Shown here: positions 5,312-23,780 of the stretch, piece after piece
Position numbering within the stretch: position 1 is the stretch's first letter
How the letters are laid out: every line of letters starts with the position of its first letter
NCBI GenBank assembly: GCA_965217095.1
Contig: OZ244235.1
Coordinates: forward strand, 5,268,609-5,332,608
Source: Candidatus Latescibacterota bacterium
GTDB taxonomy: Bacteria > Latescibacterota > UBA2968 > UBA8231
Reading direction: 5' to 3'
Length of the DNA stretch: 64,000 nucleotides
Program-made: the position numbers and the translations under genes
The notes under the pieces: generated by a model
Told to the model about the DNA's origin: nothing
The model's input: the letters and a program-made list of their open reading frames with translations, nothing else
Databases searched by the model: none

Positions 5312-6946
5312 CCTGAATAATTCATGAATCCGCACCAAGCGAACGAATTCGGTGCGCTGGTCAATGGCTGGACGTTTTGGTAGCGGGTTGATCGAGTGCT
5401 GTCGGTCGTCGAGGTGTTGTCTGGGAGATCTGAGCCTCTTTTGGATGTCATTGGGACAGTCGGGTCCCTTGGTGGATCGTGTGCGTGGATGTAGTGGGAC
5501 ATCGCAAAGCATCATGAGGTGTCGAGGTTGAGGACGACGGTGCGCATCAGATCCTTGAGCGGGTATGACGTCGGAAAGTGAAAACGGACCTTGGTGGCTT
5601 GCTCCCGCACGCGGGCGCCGATTTTGAGCACCCGGAGTTGGATCGTGTTAAAGTTGGACGTCGTCCATTGGGTGCCGCGCATGCCAATCTGTTGGATCGT
5701 GTGCAGCAGCACGTAGGCCGCGCTGTGCAGGAAGAGGCGAAATTGGTTGGCCGAGAAGCGGTGGCAGGAGGTGCGGTCGGACTGCAGGTAGGTCTTGTGA
5801 TTCTTGATGAAGCCTTCCGACCGCCCACGAGCGCAGTAGATCTCCTCATACAGAAACTCGGGAGAGCGGTTGCGGATATTGGTCACCACGAAGCGCGGGT
5901 TGGCTTTGCCTTGTGTGATCTCGGCCTTGTAGATAATCTGGCGCGGTCGGGGCCAGCTCTTGGCCTGATACTCGAAGCGGTCAAAAAGCCGCACCGGTTC
6001 ATCGCTCTGCTCGGCCAGCGCCGCCACCAGCTCCATCAGCGGTTCGCCGAGTGCCTTGAGCTTGTTGTTGATCGCCTGTCCCAGAATGAAATCAATACCG
6101 TATCCGTCGCACAGGTCGTGCACCTCAGGGGTGCTGAAGTGTGAGTCGCCTCGTAAGGTGATCTTCGTCTTCGGCCACACCATGATCAAATGATCCAACA
6201 CGCGTTTGAGGATGGCTACCGCCTCTCGGCCTCGCATTCTACGACCGGGTCGCAGCAGCGTCGTGATCAATTTGCCCGACTCCCCTTCGTAGAGATGGAC
6301 CGGAAGGTAGCAATACTCGTCATAGTAGGCATGGAACAACGTGAGTTGCTGGGCGCCGTGTGCCGGATCGTCCGTGTCGTCGATGTCGATGGTGAGCTTC
6401 TTGGGCGGCTGGTCGTAAGACTCGATGAATATTTCCAGCAAAGCGAGCCCGATGCGATACAGATCCGAGCGGCTGACACTGTTTTCCAAACGAGACATGG
6501 TTGGTTGACTGGCCAAATCGTCTCCCGTCAGAGGCAGACGGTCGCACGCGGTTTTCAGACCCGGATCGCAACGCAGGTCGTCACTGTCATTGGCGTCCTC
6601 GTAGCCACAGGCGATCTGGAATACGCGCTGCCGGATGAGGTCAGTATACGTATGGTCGATATAGCTTTGATGTCGACGATCCGACATCGCCGCCACGATT
6701 CGGTCGACGATCCCGGTGCGGGCTTCCGCTGGTCGCAGAAGCAGGGCGCCCCCATCACTGGTGGTCATGCCACCGTCAAAATCAGCTTCGATCTTTTTGC
6801 CCGAGATGTTTGCAAACGATAGCGCGATCTGCGAAGTTTCCATCTGCGGTGGCCCTCTTGATTGGTTGTTGTTTGTGGGTAACCCTAACGTAGGGCAAAA
6901 CAACCAGTTGTACAGAGGCTCACCGCATTTTTATGAATAATTCAGG
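5312..6946 (-). mobile_element. IS1380-family insertion sequence (1635 bp)
   Basis: Terminal inverted repeats CCTGAATAATTCATGAA (5312-5328) and CCTGAATTATTCATAAA (reverse complement of 6930-6946) match at 15 of 17 positions and start with CC as in IS1380. Flanked by a 4-bp CTAG duplication. Single 443-aa DDE transposase ORF. Confidence 0.8.
5512..6843 (-). CDS. IS1380-family DDE transposase
   Basis: The ORF track gives 5512..6903. The likely start is METSQIAL at 6843. The N-terminus (SFANISGKKIEADFDGGMTTSDGGALLLRPAEARTGI) and overall length are typical of IS1380 transposases. Confidence 0.8.
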   Translation of the reverse strand: METSQIALSFANISGKKIEADFDGGMTTSDGGALLLRPAEARTGIVDRIVAAMSDRRHQSYIDHTYTDLIRQRVFQIACGYEDANDSDDLRCDPGLKTACDRLPLTGDDLASQPTMSRLENSVSRSDLYRIGLALLEIFIESYDQPPKKLTIDIDDTDDPAHGAQQLTLFHAYYDEYCYLPVHLYEGESGKLITTLLRPGRRMRGREAVAILKRVLDHLIMVWPKTKITLRGDSHFSTPEVHDLCDGYGIDFILGQAINNKLKALGEPLMELVAALAEQSDEPVRLFDRFEYQAKSWPRPRQIIYKAEITQGKANPRFVVTNIRNRSPEFLYEEIYCARGRSEGFIKNHKTYLQSDRTSCHRFSANQFRLFLHSAAYVLLHTIQQIGMRGTQWTTSNFNTIQLRVLKIGARVREQATKVRFHFPTSYPLKDLMRTVVLNLDTS

Positions 6947-16173: not shown

Positions 16174-16620
16174 ATGGCCAGACAGCCGCTTCAAGTTCTA
16201 GTGATTCCGGTCCGAGTTCGCTCTGAGCCAGAGTTCGCGGTTTTTCGCCGTTCTGACGGCGAAATGTGGCAATTTATTGCTGGTGGCGCCGAGGACCACG
16301 AAGACGCATTGCAGGCAGCACATCGGGAGGCCGCAGAGGAAGCAGGCATTCCTCGCAATCTATCGATTGTTCGACTTGATTCAGTTGCCTCGATTACAAG
16401 ATCGTCGTTCTTGCAAACTGAACACTGGCCGGAAGATCTGTATGTCGTCCGTGAGTATTCGTTTGCCATTGATGTCGGTGACCGGCAATTGACGTTGTCC
16501 TCTGAACACGACGAGGTGAGGTGGTTGCCGTATGATATGGCATCATCTCTCCTGACATGGGACAGCAACCGGGTTGCCCTTTGGGAGCTAAATGAAAGGC
16601 TGGCAAGAGTCACTAGCTAA
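16174..16620 (+). CDS. NUDIX hydrolase
   Basis: Nudix box GGAEDHEDALQAAHREAAEEAGI. Confidence 0.8.
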   Translation: MARQPLQVLVIPVRVRSEPEFAVFRRSDGEMWQFIAGGAEDHEDALQAAHREAAEEAGIPRNLSIVRLDSVASITRSSFLQTEHWPEDLYVVREYSFAIDVGDRQLTLSSEHDEVRWLPYDMASSLLTWDSNRVALWELNERLARVTS

Positions 16621-16696
16621 GGGCAATGATTGGATTTCCGAACCCACTTCGGCTAACACGCGCGGACCGAACACTCCCAAGGAAAGGAGTAAAGCT

Positions 16697-17434
16697 ATGT
16701 CAGGAATCGAACCCGCATCCCGATTAAACCGCTTGAGCGGTGCCAGGATCGGACTTCTGGATCCGGGAAAACGTACTTCAGCAGCCGTTCTTGAGGCGGT
16801 AGGGGAACGGCTCGGAGGAGAGTATGACGCGAATGTGGTCGGGCCGTGGAGGAAGTCATCTCCCTACCGGGTCTGCTCGAAGAAGCTTCTGGAGGAGATC
16901 GTTCCCCAGTGCGATGGGCTTGTGATGGGAGTCGTGGACTGATGCGGCGCCAGTTCGTGCAGTTTGCACGATATGCTGGAGTTTGAGTTGAGAGGCATCC
17001 CGACCGCCTATATCACAGCCGCTGGAAGGGTTCCAAAGATCGAACGCGATGGTGTTGGGTTCAGGCTGTCGCATGCGACGGGGAGCTATCTGGTAGAGGA
17101 ATGGGAGGACTCCGGCCAACAGTCTGACGCCGTGCATCGCAGGTTGGTCCACTTCGGGGTACACCGCAGGATGCGGATGAGCGGGGTGAAGGAGGGAGAC
17201 GCGGTCCGCTACGGCGACAGGGAGCTGCGATGGGAATATCCTCCAAAGGACCTGGAGGCTAGAGCCAAGCCCGCCGGAGCCGGCGCCTGGTCGAGCACCT
17301 CTGACGGCGTTGCAGGCTACAGGAGTATTGAACTGCGGGCGTACGCAGCACCCGTGGGAGGCGATGAATTCGATGAAAGTGTGGCGGAGGCCGTCCCGCA
17401 GGTGGTTTCGATTCTGACGGGTGGGAAGGAGTGA
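16697..17434 (+). CDS. candidate selenoprotein (about 245 aa, GrdB/PrdB-like or UGSC-like family?) with in-frame UGA at 16940-16942
   Basis: Track ORFs 16592..16942 and 16964..17434 share a reading frame and are separated only by one TGA plus 7 codons. There is a strong RBS (AAAGGAG) before the ATG at 16697. The second ORF has no RBS. Local context VMGVVD-U-CGASSCSL...RGIPT. A SECIS-like hairpin starts 7 nt 3' of the UGA. Confidence 0.5.
16950..16979 (+). promoter_or_regulatory. SECIS-like stem-loop 7 nt downstream of the in-frame UGA
   Basis: CCAG-T-TCGTGCA-GUU-UGCACGA-UAUG-CUGG gives a 7-bp upper stem, a GUU apical loop with G-U, and a 4-bp lower stem. The apical loop lies about 20 nt after the UGA, the geometry expected for a bacterial SECIS. 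Confidence 0.45.
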
Positions 17435-18141: not shown

Positions 18142-18337
18142 TGTCCCCACTTCATACGACACAGCGGTTTACGGTGCGCCGTGCTAAGGCGCACATCTTC
18201 AGTGGGTGCGAATCCCACCCGGCAAGGGTCGCTCCAGCCGGTAGCAATCGGAGCAGCGGTGGAGGCGACGAAGCCGCTGAAGCCTTCGGCGTAGATGTGG
18301 TTCCGTCTGTTGAGACCACGTCCTCGCGCCGAAAAGC

Positions 18338-19432
18338 TCACTGAAACAGCGCGGCCTCGATGGTTAACCCCGGCCCGAACCCGAGCGCCACGCACGGCAT
18401 GCGGGCTCCCGAGTCCAGCAACCGTTCCAGGATGAACGCCAGAGTGGCCGATGACATGTTCCCGTGATCCCCGAGGACCTGGCGTGAGACGACAGTCGAC
18501 TCCGGGGACAGACCCAGCGCTTTCTCGGCTGCATCCAGGATCCTCGGCCCGCCGGGATGAATCGCCCAGGTGGAGACATCACCCCGCGTGAGACCCGACT
18601 CGGCGAGCCAAGGGTCCACGTACGCCGAAAGGTGCGCTTCGATGAGATCCGGGATCTGCGCCGAGATAGTCATCTGGAACCCATGATCGCCGATGCGCCA
18701 AGTCATGGCATCGGCCGAATCCGGCAGCAGGAAAGAGCCGCCGCGCGTCATCGTCCACTCGTCGGCTCCCCCGTCCGACCCGGCGGCGAAACGCGCCACG
18801 AGGGCGCCCGCGCCATCGGCGAACAGCGAATTCGAGACGATCCGGTCGGCATCCCAACCGTACTGGAAGTGCAGGGAGCACAGCTCGATCGAGGTCACCA
18901 GGATTCGGGCCTCTGGATCCGACCGGGCGATCGCCGCGGAGACGCGCAGCGCATTCAGCATAGCGTGGCAGCCCATGAAGCCAATCTGCACCCGCTCGAC
19001 CGTCCGCTCGAGCGACAGACCGTCGACGAGCTGGCAATCGATTCCGGGCGCGAAGAAGCCGGTGCACGTTACGGTTATCAGGTGAGTGATCTCACGCGGA
19101 TGCACCATGGATTTGCGCAGGGCATTGGAGGCGACCCGAAGCGCCAGCGACCCCGCGTGCCTTTCGTACCTGCACATTCGGGCTTCGGTGGACGGCCCCC
19201 GGTCCTCCGGACCTACCCGGAGCGGGTAGAAGTCGTAGTTCATTGACCCGCCGGTCTCGTCCAGGAGGACGCTGCCCCGCGCCCGAATCCTGGTCCTCTT
19301 GTAAAGTATCTTCAGCATCCGCTCCTGCTCCGGGGCGTTCGCCGATAGGGACAGCGCATGGTCCGCGCTCTCCAGCTGATCGATTGAGTGCGCCGAAGAC
19401 GCGGAAGCCACCGCCAGTATTCTGAGGGCCAT
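18338..19432 (-). CDS. type III polyketide synthase (chalcone/stilbene synthase family)
   Basis: Cys-containing GFMGCHAMLNAL segment, HPGGPRILD and the C-terminal GFGPGLT motif. Confidence 0.8.
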   Translation of the reverse strand: MALRILAVASASSAHSIDQLESADHALSLSANAPEQERMLKILYKRTRIRARGSVLLDETGGSMNYDFYPLRVGPEDRGPSTEARMCRYERHAGSLALRVASNALRKSMVHPREITHLITVTCTGFFAPGIDCQLVDGLSLERTVERVQIGFMGCHAMLNALRVSAAIARSDPEARILVTSIELCSLHFQYGWDADRIVSNSLFADGAGALVARFAAGSDGGADEWTMTRGGSFLLPDSADAMTWRIGDHGFQMTISAQIPDLIEAHLSAYVDPWLAESGLTRGDVSTWAIHPGGPRILDAAEKALGLSPESTVVSRQVLGDHGNMSSATLAFILERLLDSGARMPCVALGFGPGLTIEAALFQ

Positions 19433-19435
19433 GTA

Positions 19436-20593
19436 CTAGAGCCTTTCGATAAGGGGACGGTTGAAGCTCGCGACGACCGGCCGCGTCCACCCCGGTGACA
19501 ATGCTATCATGTGGATCAGCATACTCGTGATCGACGGCCGACCCAGCAGGTTCCGAAGGATTCGACAAACGGGCTGGCGTCCTACGATTTTCCGGCGGTG
19601 GATCCTCTCCCACTCGACGAGGAGCGATTCGGACCAGCGATCGCGGGCTGCTGCCGCGAGTGGCGCCACCCGCAGCGCCGAATTCAGTGCCCAGGACATG
19701 CCTTCGCCTGTGAAGGGCTCCACGTACCCGGTGGCATCGCCCACCAGGAACATCCGCCGCCTGCCGTGAATCCTGCGGCGACGCGTCAGGTACGGTGTGC
19801 CCCGGATACCCCGGACAATCTCAAACCCCTCCAGAACTCCCTCCCGCTCCAGGATACCGCGGAGGACCGCTTCCGGCGTCGACCCAACGAGCGCCCTGCG
19901 ATCGACGGCTGCAGCGACGTCCACAAGCCCATCTTCCAGGCGGACCAGGCCCACATATCCCTCAGAGGCCACCGTCATCCGGATCTCACCGACCCGGAGT
20001 TCCGACGCCGGCACCGCCGCGAGAACCCCGAGCCCGATCCTCGAGTCCGGTGCGACGACCGGGGAGAAGCATGGGTGCCCCCGGAGAAACCCTCCGTCGA
20101 GGCCGTCCGCGGCGAGCACAACGCGTGCATGCACGGTCGAGGGCGGAGTCCCGGCCCTCGGTTTCAGATCGACGAGCCAGCCTTCCGCCTGCTCCGCACC
20201 CAGTCGCGCGAAGGTGCCCGGTCGAAAGACCGTCCCTGCCTGCTGTGCCTCCCGCACCAGGGCGGCGTCGAGGGCTCGTCGCGAGACCGCGTAGCCCGAT
20301 GGGAGCGATATGTGCGCACGCCGTCCGTAGCCGCGAAGATCGAGCGTGTCCAGACGGTGGGCACCGAGACCATCGAGAAGCCCACGCAGCCCCGACTGTT
20401 CCAGGGCGTCCAGCGCCGCGCCGTTGAGGCAGCCGCCGCAGACCTTGTCGCGGGGAAACGCGCAGCGGTCAACGAGGAGCACCGACAGGCCCTTGCCCGC
20501 TAGCAGTCGCGCCGCAGTCGCGCCTGCTGGTCCCGCACCCGCCACGAACGCGTCCCAGTATTCACTGGGCTTCCCATTCCGCTCAGTTGCCAT
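19436..20593 (-). CDS. FAD-dependent oxidoreductase (geranylgeranyl-reductase / flavin monooxygenase family)
   Basis: N-terminal WDAFVAGAGPAGATAARLLAGKG Rossmann motif, FPRDKVCGGCL and GDATGYVEPFTGEG. Its 3' end is 4 nt from the PKS start, so the two are operonic. Confidence 0.75.
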   Translation of the reverse strand: MATERNGKPSEYWDAFVAGAGPAGATAARLLAGKGLSVLLVDRCAFPRDKVCGGCLNGAALDALEQSGLRGLLDGLGAHRLDTLDLRGYGRRAHISLPSGYAVSRRALDAALVREAQQAGTVFRPGTFARLGAEQAEGWLVDLKPRAGTPPSTVHARVVLAADGLDGGFLRGHPCFSPVVAPDSRIGLGVLAAVPASELRVGEIRMTVASEGYVGLVRLEDGLVDVAAAVDRRALVGSTPEAVLRGILEREGVLEGFEIVRGIRGTPYLTRRRRIHGRRRMFLVGDATGYVEPFTGEGMSWALNSALRVAPLAAAARDRWSESLLVEWERIHRRKIVGRQPVCRILRNLLGRPSITSMLIHMIALSPGWTRPVVASFNRPLIERL

Positions 20594-21350
20594 GTGTGCT
20601 CTGCGGGGCCCACGACAGCAGCAACCGGCACGGCCAGCGCCGCGTGCAGCGGACGCCCGGAAGGTCCGCGAGGATCGACATCGCGATCGTCTCTTCGAGC
20701 GAAAAGGCCGCCCGTACCGAGAGCAGGGCGTCCGCGTGCACGATCGGCGAGCGGGTGAACGCGCGACTCGCTACGCCCGCCAAGAGAAACCCCCGGGTTG
20801 ATCGCTCCAGGTCATGGACCACGAACCCGCGCCGGGCAGCGCGAGCCATTTCCCGAAACAGCCTGACCGCCTGTCCGTCAGCCAGGTGATGCAGGAAGAG
20901 GCTGGACACGAAGTAGCCGTATCCATCCGGTAGCGGCCCCTCGAGAACGTCGCGGGCGAAGAATCGGCACGTCGGCGTCGAGCCCGCGCGGGATTGCCGG
21001 TCCGCGAACTCGACCGCGTGACCACTCCTGTCGCAGCCGTCGAACTCGAACGGCATTCCGTCCCGTGCCGCCAGCGCCGCGAGTCGCCGGGTGATGTCCC
21101 CGCTCCCGCACGCGAGGTCCAGTACCCGCACAGGCCCTCCGCCTCCGTTGTGTCTGACCTCCATGCCCGCCAGCGCCGCCCATAGGCCATCCGCCGTTCG
21201 ACTCAGTCGGTTAAGACGTGCCAGCCCCCGTAGCGCCTGGATGTGCGACGAGGCGTCCAGGGCCCGGTCGTCCATGCGCTCATCGGCCCACTGGCGGCGT
21301 TCGAGCGCCCAGTTGCGTATCAGCCGATCTCTCCAGCGGACGTTGCTCAT
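20583..21350 (-). CDS. class I SAM-dependent methyltransferase
   Basis: VLDLACGSGD motif I. The track ORF extends to 21395, but the likely start is MSNVR at 21350. It overlaps the oxidoreductase start by 11 nt. Confidence 0.7.
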   Translation of the reverse strand: MSNVRWRDRLIRNWALERRQWADERMDDRALDASSHIQALRGLARLNRLSRTADGLWAALAGMEVRHNGGGGPVRVLDLACGSGDITRRLAALAARDGMPFEFDGCDRSGHAVEFADRQSRAGSTPTCRFFARDVLEGPLPDGYGYFVSSLFLHHLADGQAVRLFREMARAARRGFVVHDLERSTRGFLLAGVASRAFTRSPIVHADALLSVRAAFSLEETIAMSILADLPGVRCTRRWPCRLLLSWAPQSTHGN

Positions 21351-21733
21351 GCGCTGCCGGCCTCCAGTGCTTCGCGCGACACACAGACTCCACACATTTT
21401 GGGTTGTATCAGAGAACGATCAAAGTACCAAGTCTGTGAGGCAGGTTCAATTAGGGGAATTACTACATTCCAGAAGTGCGTGTAGGAAAACCACTTTGTG
21501 GGACACAACGCCATGCCTTGCTTGTGCCAATACGTGCACGATATCGCTTGCCAACGTGAATCCAATTCCCCAACATTTTTTGTTCGCACATTTTTGCATT
21601 GTCCAAAGTAGAGAATTTGCATGAGCTACCGCGAAATTCAATTGAATCCAAGATACTCTGATGAAATCCTAGCATGGGAGTACGACAGCTAAACAACAAG
21701 CTATCTCCTGCGAGGTGGCATGGTATCTGAAAT

Positions 21734-23780
21734 ATGCACACAAGGTCCAAGGCCAGCTCAGAGCCCCCCGGTGAGACCCACCCTTCAATCCCCTTGGATA
21801 GCGTAAGACAGCCAGAACCGAGCCGGGATGAAACGCCTCTCATTACGCTGCGGTCATTGGTTCTGGGTGCTCTGACCATTGCCGCAACCTTCTACTATTA
21901 CATAAACGAGATTCAGGGAACGGGCATGCTCGGTCATGCTGTGAGCTCACAGCTTCCGGTTGTCGTGTACGTTCCCTTCGTGTTATGGCTGTTCCTGAAT
22001 GTCCTTCTGAAACAGCTATGGCCGCGGCTGGCCCTCCGCAGGGGGGAGTTGCTGACGATCTTTGGAATGCTCTGGGTGGTAGGCACCATTCCGGGGTACG
22101 GCTGGATGGGGTATTGGGTACTCACGCTGGCGGCACCCGCTTTCTACGACACTGCCGAAAATCAGTGGGCCGAGATTCTCTTCGACTTCCTTCCCTGGCA
22201 TGTATTCCCCGACACCTCTGCACGGGTCATCGATGCCTTCTGGCTGGGCTTGCCGGAAGGTGCGCCGGTGCCCTGGGACGGTTGGTTCGGCGCAACAGCT
22301 CAGTGGTTGAGCGTTTCGGTGGCCATGGTCGGCTTCGGCCTCTGTTTGGTTATCCTGCTGCAACTGCAATGGGAAGCGAACGAGAAGCTGACCTTTCCCC
22401 TGGCTCAACTCCCGCTGGATCTGACTGCCGGATTCGACGGAGCACACGGGTGCCCCGTGATCTTCCGTTCGCGGCTGTTCTGGGTCGGCTTCGCCACAGT
22501 CTTCGTACCCGTCCTCTAACATCACATCCTACTTCATGGTCGGACTGCCGAGGATTGGGATTTACTGGGATCTCTACGACATTCATTTGGGAGAGGGATT
22601 CCCGACTTTACACTTCCGCATCATGCCTCTGGTGGTGGCCGTAACCTACCTGTGCCCCCTCGATATTCTGGCCAGCATGGTTGTCTTCCATCTGCTGGCG
22701 ATTTTCAAGGGGGCGGCTATGTCGCGGATCGGTTTCACCGTCGGCAGCGCTGAAGAGTCGTTACAGTGGAACGATATCCTTCATCTAGAAAGCTATGGCG
22801 CCATCATCTTCATGGGACTCTGGACCTTCTGGTTGGCTCGGGGCCACTTGCGCCACACCTGGCGGCAGGTTCGGTGGGGTGCCGGGGAACCTCAGGAGGT
22901 GTCGCGCCACCGGCGCGTGCTTCTGGGATTGACGATATGAGGCGTTTATCTCCTGGGATGGATGATGGCGCTGGGGATGAGCCTGCCAGCGGCGCTTCTA
23001 ATATTCTCCGTGGCGCTTTTGACCTACGTCGTGGTCGTCAAACTAATCGCCGCCACCGGATGTGCCTATCTGCTCACCGACCCAGGGCATATCAAGGGGA
23101 TCACCTTCGTGAATGAGCTGTTGGGCACTGCCCGCCTGTCACCCCGCAGCTATGTAGGGTTCAGGGTGTTCAGCGGTACGACCTTCTTTGGCAACTTACG
23201 CATTCCGGCCTGGCCTTCCCTGCCCCACCTGCTGCGCATCTTCTCGCTGAAACAACAGTCCGGATGGATAGCAGCGCTGGTCTTGGTCGCATTTCCAGTG
23301 GGATTCCTGGTAGCTGCGGGGGCAACGCTGGAAATGGCCTACACCAAGCAGGGGCTGGTCTTCTTTTCCGATAGCATCGGTCCCGGATACTACGAAACGG
23401 CTCGCAATCTGAATGACCCGGAAAATCCCGATCTCGGCCGCTGGCTCGTATTCCTTTTCGGCGTCGCGGAATCGGCGGTGCTGGCTATTTTGCGCGCCCG
23501 ATTTCACTGGTTTCCCCTGCATCCGGTGGGGGTCGCCTTTCAGTATACCATTGTCGGGATCGTATTTTGGTTTAGTCTGTTTCTGGTTTGGGCAGTGAAG
23601 GTGTTGCTGTTGCGCTTCGGCGGCAAAGGCGCTTACCTGGCGGGAAAGCCGTTCTTCTACGGTCTGGCAATCGGTTATGTAAGCGGAATAATCGTCTCGG
23701 TTTGCGTCGACCTCATCTGGTTTCCCACCGCAGGTCACAACGTTCATTCCTGGTTTGTGGAGATCAAAGCCCTGATCTAG
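21734..23780 (+). pseudogene. large polytopic membrane-protein gene (uncharacterised family) broken into three ORFs by a frameshift near 22520 and an in-frame TGA at 22938
   Basis: ORFs 21734..22519 (frame 2), 22536..22940 and 22962..23780 (both frame 0) are all hydrophobic, multi-helix and collinear. The last two are separated only by a TGA plus 7 codons, with no RBS. No hairpin follows this TGA. Confidence 0.5.

What the first reader, a model, noticed from the sequence alone, without database searches (positions are those of the whole stretch)
16697..17434. Probable selenocysteine-recoded gene: in-frame UGA followed by a SECIS-like hairpin
Two ORFs in the same frame (16592..16942 and 16964..17434) are separated by one TGA and 7 codons. 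The upstream half has a strong RBS (AAAGGAG-N6-ATG at 16697); the downstream half has no RBS and no plausible independent start.

Starting 7 nt after the UGA there is a hairpin: CCAG-U-UCGUGCA-GUU-UGCACGA-UAUG-CUGG, with a 7-bp upper stem and a G-U apical loop about 20 nt from the UGA. This geometry fits a bacterial SECIS.

The local context (hydrophobic stretch, then U, then CGASSC...E..RGIPT) resembles, as far as I can recall, the Sec loop of the glycine/proline reductase protein B family (the UxxC / UGSC-type families). The total length of about 245 aa is also in that range. That family assignment is from memory and may be wrong.

The alternative is a nonsense pseudogene, which is not trivial here because this window contains other decayed genes.
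Basis: partly seen in the sequence, partly recalled or inferred. Interest (0 to 1): 0.75.

Follow-up and report, generated by a model that had tools for sequence, protein, structure and literature searches.

The report
Selenocysteine gene of the UGSC family
This is almost certainly one 245-residue gene in which an internal UGA stop codon is read as the rare amino acid selenocysteine with the help of an RNA hairpin just downstream; it belongs to a known but functionally uncharacterised selenoprotein family (UGSC), in an undescribed variant that public annotations cut into two fragments.

Summary
Window 16697-17434 (+) is one reading frame with a single internal TGA (16940-16942), followed by a hairpin at 16950-16979.

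The evidence for selenocysteine recoding is comparative:
- The TGA and an intact 245-codon frame are kept in every orthologue recovered, from Latescibacterota/Gemmatimonadota genomes of many species.
- Both halves are under purifying selection (dN/dS 0.13 and 0.21).
- The UGA aligns with the first Cys of the D-[C/U]-G-S-C motif of the UGSC family (Pfam PF24696, 83.5 bits).
- The hairpin meets all four published bacterial SECIS criteria.
- The hairpin is kept in the same register across divergent TGA-type members, with compensatory base changes, and is lost or degraded in Cys-type members.

The glycine/proline reductase B suggestion is not supported; the "UGSC-type" suggestion is correct.

The protein is an atypical UGSC member. 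An Obg-C-terminal-like domain of about 70 residues is inserted in the flavodoxin-like core. The motif is U-C-G-A-S-S-C rather than UxxC.

One gap remains. No selA, selB, selD or tRNA-Sec was found in the 392 kb I could reach, which says little for 5-6 Mb genomes.

Verdict: a real selenoprotein gene, a new variant of a known kind, of moderate interest.

The parts
16683..16689 (+). Shine-Dalgarno sequence AAAGGAG, 7 nt upstream of the start codon
   Evidence: Read directly. The same motif and spacing precede the ATG/GTG start in nearly all orthologous loci.
16697..17434 (+). Complete selenoprotein CDS: 245 codons including Sec-82, plus the terminal TGA at 17432-17434
   Evidence: Translation. 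The same 245-codon frame with one internal TGA is found in 24 loci. dN/dS is 0.13 upstream and 0.21 downstream of the UGA.
16940..16942 (+). In-frame UGA, codon 82, proposed Sec codon
   Evidence: It is TGA in 21 of 21 distinct orthologues. It aligns with the first Cys of D-C-G-S-C in family members, and 17 cluster representatives end exactly before this column.
16950..16979 (+). SECIS-like hairpin. Lower stem 16950-16953/16976-16979, upper stem 16955-16961/16965-16971, apical loop GUU 16962-16964.
   Evidence: MFE is -14.5 kcal/mol, z = -4.7. It meets the bSECIS criteria quoted in PMC13188914. The upper stem has 6-7 of 7 bp in 28 of 28 distinct Sec-type sequences, with compensatory changes. 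Covariation score is 0.239 against 0.084 for shuffles, with 0 of 500 shuffles reaching it. dS is lowest here.
16700..17035 (+). N-terminal part of the UGSC domain (residues 2-113): beta-alpha-beta flavodoxin-like core, with Sec at the start of helix 3
   Evidence: Pfam PF24696, 83.5 bits, residues 5-108. hhalign against canonical UGSC proteins gives 99.9% probability. AlphaFold model of the Cys homologue P0041 has pLDDT 92.
17036..17251 (+). Inserted Obg C-terminal (OCT/DUF1967)-like domain, about residues 114-185
17252..17431 (+). C-terminal part of the UGSC domain (residues 186-245): last strand and helix of the core
   Evidence: hhalign aligns it with the C-terminal ~55 residues of canonical UGSC proteins.

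Best explanation
Window 16697-17434 is a single gene for a 245-residue selenoprotein of the UGSC family.

Proposed mechanism. Translation starts at ATG 16697 behind a conserved Shine-Dalgarno. At UGA 16940-16942 the ribosome does not terminate. The mRNA hairpin at 16950-16979 (7-bp upper stem, GUU apical loop 19 nt after the UGA) acts as a bacterial SECIS element. It is expected to recruit SelB-GTP-Sec-tRNA(Sec), so that selenocysteine is inserted at position 82.

What is shown:
- the UGA is conserved
- both halves are under coding constraint
- Cys and Sec alternate at this column across the family
- the hairpin is conserved, covaries, and fits the consensus bacterial SECIS model

What is inferred: SelB dependence, and actual incorporation of selenium.

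The protein. It is a flavodoxin-like alpha/beta domain. Sec sits at the junction of strand 3 and helix 3, in the motif D-U-C-G-A-S-S-C. An Obg-OCT-like domain of about 70 residues is inserted between strand 4 and the last strand-helix unit.

Likely chemistry. By analogy with other UxxC/CxxU selenoproteins, I infer a redox-active selenol. It would cycle through a selenenylsulfide with Cys83 or Cys88. The substrate is unknown.
For: (1) One frame, one internal TGA, and a conserved RBS.

(2) Twenty-four orthologous or paralogous loci all have TGA at codon 82 and an otherwise open 245-codon frame. They come from Ca. Latescibacterota/Gemmatimonadota genomes in a collection holding one genome per species, plus metagenomes. 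The gene's own terminator is also TGA in 20 of 21, so UGA is an ordinary stop codon in these genomes.

(3) dN/dS is 0.13 for codons 2-81 and 0.21 for codons 97-245. Codons 83-94 lie between the UGA and the first possible restart codon, and they have dN = 0 with dS = 0.31. That stretch is therefore translated.

(4) Pfam UGSC scores 83.5 bits against a cut-off of 25. In a 142-sequence family alignment the UGA column is the first Cys of D-C-G-S-C. Seventeen 50%-identity cluster representatives stop exactly before it. Natural full-length Cys homologues exist, namely P0030 and P0041.

(5) The bSECIS criteria in PMC13188914 are all met:
- apical loop 3-9 nt: here 3
- upper stem 4-16 bp: here 7
- G in the first two loop positions, usually followed by G or U: here GU
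- 16-37 nt from the UGA to the loop: here 19
- MFE <= -7.5 kcal/mol: here -14.5

(6) Across 28 distinct TGA-type UGSC sequences the stem has 6-7 of 7 bp in every case, and the loop starts with G in 28 of 28 and GU in 27 of 28. Compensatory changes occur at two pairs: GC to CG/AU at pair 18-30 and CG to GC at pair 21-27, numbered by alignment columns from the U of the UGA (= 1). Overall 94.9% of cells are paired, against 86.5% when shuffled and 9-55% with partners slid. Eleven cells have changes on both sides against 2.2 expected, with 0 of 500 shuffles as high.

(7) Of 23 Cys-type sequences, only 3 have >= 6 of 7 pairs. Only 2 of 23 have U at the synonymous loop site (Ser AGU against AGC), compared with 27 of 28 Sec-type. 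Fisher p is about 5e-11, not corrected for phylogeny.

(8) A second UGSC-type gene in the same genome as L003 has an in-frame TGA at the homologous site, GVGH-U-STC.
Against: - No selA, selB, selD or tRNA-Sec was found in the window or in any fetched locus (392 kb in all). The probes were validated. These genomes are 5-6 Mb, so this neither supports nor refutes the claim, and the machinery remains undemonstrated.
- Within the close orthologues the upper stem is invariant, and it overlaps the conserved peptide S-C-S-L-H-D. Part of its conservation is therefore imposed by the protein. One Cys homologue (L006) keeps all 7 pairs, and another (L081) keeps a weak wobble-rich version with a GUU loop.
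- The dip in dS over the hairpin is modest: 0.21, against 0.27-0.28 in two other windows.
- No Rfam family matches the hairpin at E <= 1.
- The NCBIfam UGSC equivalog model scores 60 bits, below its cut-off of 125.
- There is no experimental evidence of selenium incorporation.
Confidence: 0.9

Rival explanations
1. Nonsense pseudogene: a Cys (TGC/TGT) or Trp codon mutated to TGA, and the gene is decaying, like other broken genes in this window.
For: The window does contain a disrupted gene, the DUF6785/DUF6784 gene at 21734-23780, with a frame change and an in-frame TGA. One orthologue (L005, 5.5x coverage) has an additional stop at codon 51.
Against: - The same TGA is present in all 24 orthologous or paralogous loci, across many species, at 62-99% protein identity, with no other stops or frameshifts.
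- Both halves have dN/dS of 0.13-0.21.
- One genome keeps three paralogues, all with the TGA.
- Seventeen further family representatives break at the same column.
Confidence: 0.01
2. Two separate polypeptides: translation terminates at the UGA to give an 81-residue N-terminal protein. The C-terminal ~150 residues are translated independently from an internal start, as gene callers annotate, and the two halves assemble non-covalently.
For: All public gene calls split the gene this way. An in-frame ATG (Met93, 16973) exists in the window clade.
Against: - There is no Shine-Dalgarno before Met93.
- That position is Leu (CUG), Val or Ile in divergent Sec-type and Cys-type relatives, so no start codon is conserved.
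- The ten codons between the UGA and Met93 are perfectly conserved as amino acids while varying synonymously: dN = 0, dS = 0.31.
- Full-length single-chain Cys homologues exist.
- The break would fall at the N-terminus of helix 3, inside the alpha/beta core.
Confidence: 0.03
3. UGA read-through without selenium: the hairpin stimulates insertion of a standard amino acid (Trp, Cys or Gly) by a near-cognate or suppressor tRNA. Alternatively, Cys is delivered by the Sec machinery under selenium limitation.
For: The selenium machinery was not found in the sequence I could reach. Hairpins downstream of stop codons can stimulate read-through in other systems (general knowledge).
Against: - The column alternates strictly between UGA and Cys codons within a family known to contain selenoproteins.
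- The hairpin has the specific features of SelB-binding elements: GU at the start of a small apical loop and 19-nt spacing.
- The loop U is kept at a synonymous site only in UGA-type genes.
Confidence: 0.05

Closest known systems
UGSC-containing selenoprotein family (Pfam PF24696; NCBIfam NF041046). It was first reported from marine metagenomes and is listed among the most abundant prokaryotic selenoprotein families (PMC2398784, PMC13188914).
   Same: - Significant Pfam match, and 99.9% hhalign probability to canonical members.
- Sec/Cys at the same column after a conserved Asp at the end of strand 3.
- SECIS hairpin in the same register (stem at +15 to +31 from the U of the UGA) with a G-U loop.
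- Cys-containing homologues exist.
- Stand-alone gene of unknown function.

   Different: - The motif is U-C-G-A-S-S-C, with Ala where the canonical UxxC has its second Cys; Cys is at +1 and +6 instead.
- An Obg-OCT-like domain of about 70 residues is inserted in the core, giving 245 aa against about 175-190.
- It scores below the NCBIfam equivalog cut-off (60 against 125 bits).
- The predicted fold is flavodoxin/Rossmann-like, not the thioredoxin-like fold suggested in PMC2398784.

   Same: Both are bacterial selenoproteins with Sec in a U-x-x-C-type context and a SECIS directly downstream (established knowledge). PrdB is of similar length.
   Different: - No PF07355 hit, even at E <= 1.
- No grd or prd genes in any neighbourhood.
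- The AFDB library, where these proteins would be represented, was unavailable.
Escherichia coli fdhF-type bacterial SECIS element and the consensus bSECIS model (PMC13188914, Fig. 2 legend)
   Same: A hairpin inside the coding sequence immediately 3' of the UGA. It has a small apical loop beginning with G-U, a spacing within 16-37 nt, and a stable upper stem.
   Different: The loop is only 3 nt, the minimum the model allows. No bulged U was examined. Binding to SelB is inferred, not tested. No Rfam family matches it.
C-terminal (OCT, DUF1967, TIGR03595) domain of the GTPase Obg/CgtA (PDB 1udx)
   Same: The inserted segment matches it in three ways:
- by profile (E = 2.3e-5, aligning the conserved G-x-x-x-A-L-R-x-x-G-x-x-x-G-D-x-V block)
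- by secondary-structure pattern of four strands and three helices

   Different: There is no GTPase or Obg-fold domain. The OCT-like module is embedded in a redox-type domain. Its Pfam and TIGRFAM scores are below the cut-offs.

Membership tests
Bacterial selenoprotein gene (Sec-UGA recoding) | In-frame UGA conserved among orthologues, with coding conservation on both sides | tested here: met
   TGA in 21 of 21 distinct orthologues, and 24 loci with an intact 245-codon frame. dN/dS is 0.13 upstream and 0.21 downstream.
Bacterial selenoprotein gene (Sec-UGA recoding) | Cys in homologues at the position aligned with the UGA | tested here: met
   The UGA column is the first Cys of D-C-G-S-C in about 100 family representatives. 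P0030 and P0041 are full-length Cys homologues.
Bacterial selenoprotein gene (Sec-UGA recoding) | SECIS element fitting the consensus bSECIS model: loop 3-9 nt, stem 4-16 bp, G in the first two loop positions, 16-37 nt spacing, MFE <= -7.5 kcal/mol | tested here: met
   Loop GUU, 7-bp upper stem, 19-nt spacing, -14.5 kcal/mol.
Bacterial selenoprotein gene (Sec-UGA recoding) | The hairpin is conserved in related genes through compensatory changes, and is not required in Cys forms | tested here: met
   94.9% paired, 11 cells with changes on both sides against 2.2 expected, 0 of 500 shuffles as high, slid controls 9-55%. Cys-type sequences mostly have 2-5 of 7 bp, and the loop U is lost.
Bacterial selenoprotein gene (Sec-UGA recoding) | selA, selB, selD and tRNA-Sec present in the same genome | not testable with these tools
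   None found in the window or in 84 fetched loci (392 kb) by ARAGORN or by tblastn with validated probes. The rest of these 5-6 Mb genomes could not be read.
Bacterial selenoprotein gene (Sec-UGA recoding) | Selenium demonstrated in the protein (75Se labelling or mass spectrometry) | not testable with these tools
   Requires an experiment.
UGSC family (Pfam PF24696 / NCBIfam NF041046) | Score above the Pfam gathering threshold | tested here: met
   83.5 bits against a cut-off of 25, residues 5-108 on profile positions 16-119 of 172. hhalign to canonical members gives E = 2.4e-36.
UGSC family (Pfam PF24696 / NCBIfam NF041046) | Score above the NCBIfam equivalog cut-off | tested here: not met
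   60 bits against a cut-off of 125.
UGSC family (Pfam PF24696 / NCBIfam NF041046) | U/C-G-S-C (UxxC) redox motif | tested here: not met
   The U is at the canonical position, but +3 is Ala. The motif is U-C-G-A-S-S-C, with Cys at +1 and +6.
UGSC family (Pfam PF24696 / NCBIfam NF041046) | Single-domain protein of about 175-190 residues | tested here: not met
   245 residues, with an OCT-like insertion of about 70 residues between the N- and C-terminal parts of the UGSC core.
Glycine reductase GrdB / proline reductase PrdB (PF07355) | Sequence match to the GRDB family model | tested here: not met
   No PF07355 hit at E <= 1. Only UGSC and a weak DUF1967 hit were returned.
Glycine reductase GrdB / proline reductase PrdB (PF07355) | Operon context with grdA/grdE/grdC or prdA partners | tested here: not met
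   Neighbours are NUDIX and CPT-like kinase in the window, and PhyH or glyoxalase in L001, L003 and L005. No context is conserved.
Thioredoxin-fold oxidoreductases (suggested for UGSC proteins in PMC2398784) | Thioredoxin fold | tested here: not met

The most novel reading that the evidence does not exclude
The OCT-bearing UGSC proteins (motif U/C-x5-C, Obg-OCT-like insertion, about 30 cluster representatives) may be a functionally distinct selenoprotein class rather than a decorated UGSC. In this reading the Obg-type OCT module docks a redox-active selenol onto a partner that Obg's OCT domain also recognises, such as the ribosome, RNA or a nucleotide alarmone. That would couple redox state to translation or stress signalling in sponge-associated Latescibacterota.
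Probability: 0.08. Interest if true: 0.6.

Novelty: new variant of a known kind. Interest (0 to 1): 0.38.

Why it matters
- **Annotation.** Every public gene call I saw cuts this gene into an 81-aa "UGSC" fragment and a nameless 148-156-aa ORF. One source calls the downstream half-ORF of two orthologues, and the full-length Cys homologue P0041, "hypothetical protein". Read correctly, it shows that Latescibacterota/Gemmatimonadota MAGs, including several labelled as complete chromosomes, very probably use selenocysteine. I found no report of this in the searchable literature.
- **Family definition.** It adds a defined subfamily to one of the most abundant selenoprotein families that still has no known function. 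The subfamily has an altered redox motif and an inserted Obg-OCT-like domain.
- **Fold.** A high-confidence model points to a flavodoxin-like fold rather than a thioredoxin fold, which redirects hypotheses about the chemistry.
- **SECIS dataset.** The UGSC SECIS set assembled here has 28 Sec-type and 23 Cys-type sequences in one register. It is a clean example of an RNA signal superimposed on a conserved peptide.

None of this changes the understanding of how Sec recoding works.

Tried and rejected
- **Sec machinery.** ARAGORN on the window and 21 loci found no tRNA. Pfam scans of 20 window ORFs found no Sel proteins. tblastn with E. coli SelA, SelB and SelD found nothing in 392 kb. These probes were recalled from memory and validated against the NCBIfam equivalogs at 632, 920 and 619 bits. 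I ran no further search on SelA/SelD, because hits cannot be filtered by genome and E. coli-like sequences would fill the list.
- **Literature.** Searches for Sec use in Latescibacteria or sponge symbionts returned nothing relevant.
- **Rfam.** No SECIS family matches at E <= 1.
- **Fold search.** The AFDB library was unavailable. Foldseek against the PDB gave no hit at E <= 0.001.
- **GOS supplement.** The UGSC/Unknown_1 fusion figure is an image, and the GOS sequence files do not contain this clade's motifs. I cannot say whether that fusion is the OCT type or the 547-aa type.
- **Corrected analysis.** A first dS estimate for the hairpin segment was biased, because I had filtered out pairs with dS = 0. 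I redid it without the filter.
- **Other Sec candidates.** The remaining in-frame TGAs in the window are spurious overlapping ORFs, ordinary stop codons, or the broken DUF6785 gene.
Full report
**1. The observation**

- The region reads as described. From ATG 16697 to TGA 17432-17434 there is one frame of 245 sense codons, broken only by TGA at 16940-16942 (codon 82).
- AAAGGAG lies at 16683-16689, 7 nt before the ATG.
- The mechanical ORF list gives 16592..16942 and 16964..17434 in the same frame.
- The hairpin CCAG-U-UCGUGCA-GUU-UGCACGA-UAUG-CUGG occupies 16950-16979. Alone it folds at -14.5 kcal/mol, z = -4.7, and 0 of 200 shuffles fold as well.
- A wider 66-nt segment is not exceptional (z = -1.6), so a single-sequence fold would not settle the matter.

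**2. The UGA is conserved and both halves are translated**

- A protein search with the read-through product (Cys in place of the stop) returned 31 hits. Most were ORFs of 148-156 aa covering only the C-terminal ~60%. Gene callers therefore broke the gene at the same place in many assemblies.
- The DNA around these hits shows an 81-aa ORF with a UGSC Pfam hit, 30-45 nt upstream of the C-terminal ORF.
- A scan of the one-genome-per-species collection gave 20 more loci. All came from Candidatus Latescibacterota or Gemmatimonadota MAGs, several labelled as complete chromosomes of 4.8-5.9 Mb. One genome has three paralogues.
- Every locus has a stop at codon 82 and an otherwise open 245-codon frame (244 codons in the paralogue L025; L026 is cut by the contig end).
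- The single exception is L005, a 5.5x-coverage contig with one extra stop at codon 51.
- The codon is TGA in 21 of 21 distinct sequences. The gene's own terminator is TGA in 20 of 21, so UGA is a normal stop in these organisms and the recoding is site-specific.
- dN/dS is 0.13 for codons 2-81 and 0.21 for codons 97-245.
- Codons 83-94 lie between the UGA and the first possible restart codon. They have dN = 0 and dS = 0.31, so this stretch is read as protein.
- The Shine-Dalgarno and start position are conserved, while the start codon itself alternates between ATG and GTG.
- Met93, which gene callers use as a start, has no SD. It is Leu, Val or Ile in more distant relatives.
- Together these results exclude a pseudogene and argue strongly against two separately translated polypeptides.

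**3. What lies at the UGA column in the family**

- Pfam assigns residues 5-108 to the UGSC family (PF24696, 83.5 bits, cut-off 25).
- The NCBIfam equivalog NF041046 scores 60 bits, below its cut-off of 125.
- UGSC-containing proteins are a known prokaryotic selenoprotein family of unknown function. They are among the most abundant families in the Global Ocean Sampling data, with a UxxC motif (PMC2398784; PMC13188914).
- An exhaustive phmmer search with the natural Cys homologue P0030 found 141 representatives of 50%-identity clusters.
- In their alignment the window's UGA falls on the first Cys of the family motif D-C-G-S-C. Seventeen representatives end exactly before that column, as expected for Sec forms truncated by gene callers.
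- The glycine/proline reductase B part is not. There is no PF07355 hit at E <= 1. No grd or prd neighbours occur in any locus.

**4. The hairpin as a SECIS element**

The consensus bacterial SECIS model is quoted in PMC13188914. The window element meets all four criteria:

| Criterion | Model | Window |
|---|---|---|
| Apical loop | 3-9 nt | GUU, 3 nt |
| Upper stem | 4-16 bp | 7 bp |
| UGA-to-loop spacing | 16-37 nt | 19 nt |
| MFE | <= -7.5 kcal/mol | -14.5 kcal/mol |

Conservation among close orthologues:
- The upper stem is invariant among close orthologues, and synonymous divergence is lowest there. dS is 0.21 at codons 86-97, against 0.65 and 0.78 in the flanking windows.
- The dip is modest, since two other windows reach 0.27-0.28.
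- The stem is also encoded by the conserved peptide S-C-S-L-H-D, so close orthologues alone cannot separate RNA constraint from protein constraint.

The wider family does separate them:
- Divergent Sec forms and a metagenome scan gave 28 distinct TGA-type and 19 distinct Cys-type segments, all alignable without gaps from the Sec/Cys codon.
- In TGA-type genes the stem has 6 or 7 of 7 pairs in 28 of 28. It spans alignment columns 16-22 pairing with 26-32, counted from the U of the UGA (= 1).
- The stem is built from different sequences: CGUGCA/UGCACG, CAUGCA/UGCAUG, CGUGGA/UCCACG and CCUGGA/UCCAGG. The encoded peptides differ too (C-S-L-H, W-S-V-H, W-S-V-Q).
- The loop begins with G in 28 of 28 and GU in 27 of 28.
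- The formal pair count gives 94.9% of cells paired, against 86.5% in shuffles and 9-55% with partners slid. Eleven cells have changes on both sides against 2.2 expected. The covariation score is 0.239 against 0.084, with 0 of 500 shuffles as high.
- Cys-type genes mostly have 2-4 of 7 pairs and a GCG loop.

Cys forms within the window's own subfamily:
- Four further Cys forms were fetched, making five with L006. L006 keeps all 7 pairs. L080 has a single uncompensated synonymous change, giving 6 of 7 pairs. L082 and L084 have 5 of 7. L081 has a weak wobble-rich stem.
- Four of the five have C instead of U at the second loop position, because Ser is AGC rather than AGU.
- Over all sequences, U at that synonymous site is found in 27 of 28 Sec-type and 2 of 23 Cys-type genes. 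Fisher p is about 5e-11, inflated by shared ancestry.
- This pattern is what a SelB-binding loop would produce, and protein constraint does not explain it.

Specificity: a scan with these criteria passes only the target and one spurious antisense ORF in the whole window.

**5. The protein**

- The natural Cys homologue P0041 is 45% identical to the window protein and has the motif D-C-C-A-C-S-A-C-C. It was modelled with a 147-row alignment that included the window's two halves. The model has pLDDT 92.1 and pTM 0.88.
- The core is a parallel beta-alpha-beta sandwich. The Sec-equivalent Cys sits between strand 3 and the N-terminus of helix 3.
- Foldseek finds nothing at E <= 0.001.
- The thioredoxin-like fold suggested in PMC2398784 is therefore not supported by this model.
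- Profile-profile comparison with 50 canonical ~180-aa UGSC proteins gives 99.9% probability (E = 2.4e-36). It aligns residues 2-113 and about 186-245, leaving about 114-185 as an insertion.
- That insertion matches the C-terminal (OCT) domain of Thermus thermophilus Obg in three ways:
  - by profile (1udx_A residues 347-411, E = 2.3e-5)
  - weakly, by Pfam DUF1967 and TIGR03595
- The redox motif is also atypical. U-C-G-A-S-S-C has Ala where UxxC has its second Cys, and has Cys at +1 and +6. Related OCT-bearing clades read U/C-G-H-G-S-[SA]-C.
- Gene neighbourhoods differ between loci, so there is no operon clue.
- I infer a redox-active selenol that forms a selenenylsulfide with Cys83 or Cys88. 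The substrate and the role of the OCT-like module are unknown.

**6. What remains open**

It could not be run genome-wide.
- Nothing was found in the 64-kb window or the 84 fetched loci, 392 kb in total (with probes validated). For 5-6 Mb genomes that is uninformative.
- Indirect support comes from the same genome as L003. A second UGSC-type gene there has an in-frame TGA at the homologous site (GVGH-U-STC, 547 aa read-through).
- No paper in the searchable library reports Sec use in these phyla.

**7. Verdict**

The confidence of 0.9 is limited by the untested machinery and the lack of experiment.
- By Pfam it is a member of the UGSC family. It fails three of the canonical features: the NCBIfam cut-off, the UxxC motif, and single-domain length. 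I file it as a new variant of a known kind.
- The recoding mechanism is standard. The interest lies in the mis-annotation across all public records, the implied Sec use in Latescibacterota/Gemmatimonadota, the flavodoxin-like rather than thioredoxin-like fold, and the unexplained Obg-OCT-like insertion.

Noticed in passing
window 18200-18339 (+): Rfam RF02003 (group II intron D1-D4-4) matches at 63.1 bits against a gathering score of 49. The 5' two-thirds aligns well and the 3' part poorly. The match sits between the CPT-like kinase gene and the end of the type III PKS gene, with no reverse-transcriptase ORF nearby. It is probably an intron remnant.
   Followed up: partly
window 21734-23780 (+): A DUF6785/DUF6784 membrane-protein gene is broken. 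The N-terminal part (21734-22519) and the rest (22536-23780) are in different frames. The second part has an in-frame TGA at 22938 inside a hydrophobic stretch (LLGLTI*GVYLLGW), with no Cys nearby. It looks like a decayed gene or an assembly error, not Sec.
   Followed up: partly
window 5512-6903 (-): An intact DDE_Tnp_1_4 transposase (504 bits), that is, an insertion sequence in the window.
   Followed up: no
window 18338-21395 (-): Three adjacent genes on the minus strand: a type III polyketide synthase (chalcone/stilbene synthase domains), an FAD-binding monooxygenase and a SAM methyltransferase. This looks like a small biosynthetic cluster.
   Followed up: no
L003 5054-6697 (+): A second candidate selenoprotein in the same genome as one orthologue. 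It has a UGSC N-terminal domain with an in-frame TGA at the family's Sec position (GVGH-U-STC, a true UxxC), read through into a C-terminal domain of about 430 aa, 547 aa in all. Cys-type proteins of similar length exist (P0078, P0115, P0166, P0170). Its downstream hairpin is in a different register, with a GGUC loop.
   Followed up: partly
L010, L011, L025 (MAG isolate 2fef8444-24d4-470e-a0f0-8c307ac56c94): One genome carries three copies of the gene on three contigs. Two are nearly identical, and the third is 67% identical to the window protein. All three have the TGA and the hairpin (loop GUC in L025).
   Followed up: partly
L005 9725-10462: This orthologue has an extra stop at the conserved Trp-51 codon, on a contig of only 5.5x coverage. 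It is either a sequencing error or a genuine loss in one lineage.
   Followed up: no
L081 830-1594 (P0046) and L006 85-768 (P0030): Two Cys-type members of the OCT-bearing subfamily still carry a hairpin at the SECIS position. L006 has 7 of 7 pairs with a GCU loop. L081 has a wobble-rich stem with a GUU loop. These may be recent Sec-to-Cys conversions with a fossil SECIS.
   Followed up: partly
L028 1400-1888: In this Sec-type relative a C-to-U change turns a G-C pair of the SECIS stem into G-U, at the cost of a His-to-Tyr replacement in the otherwise conserved S-L-H-D peptide.
   Followed up: no
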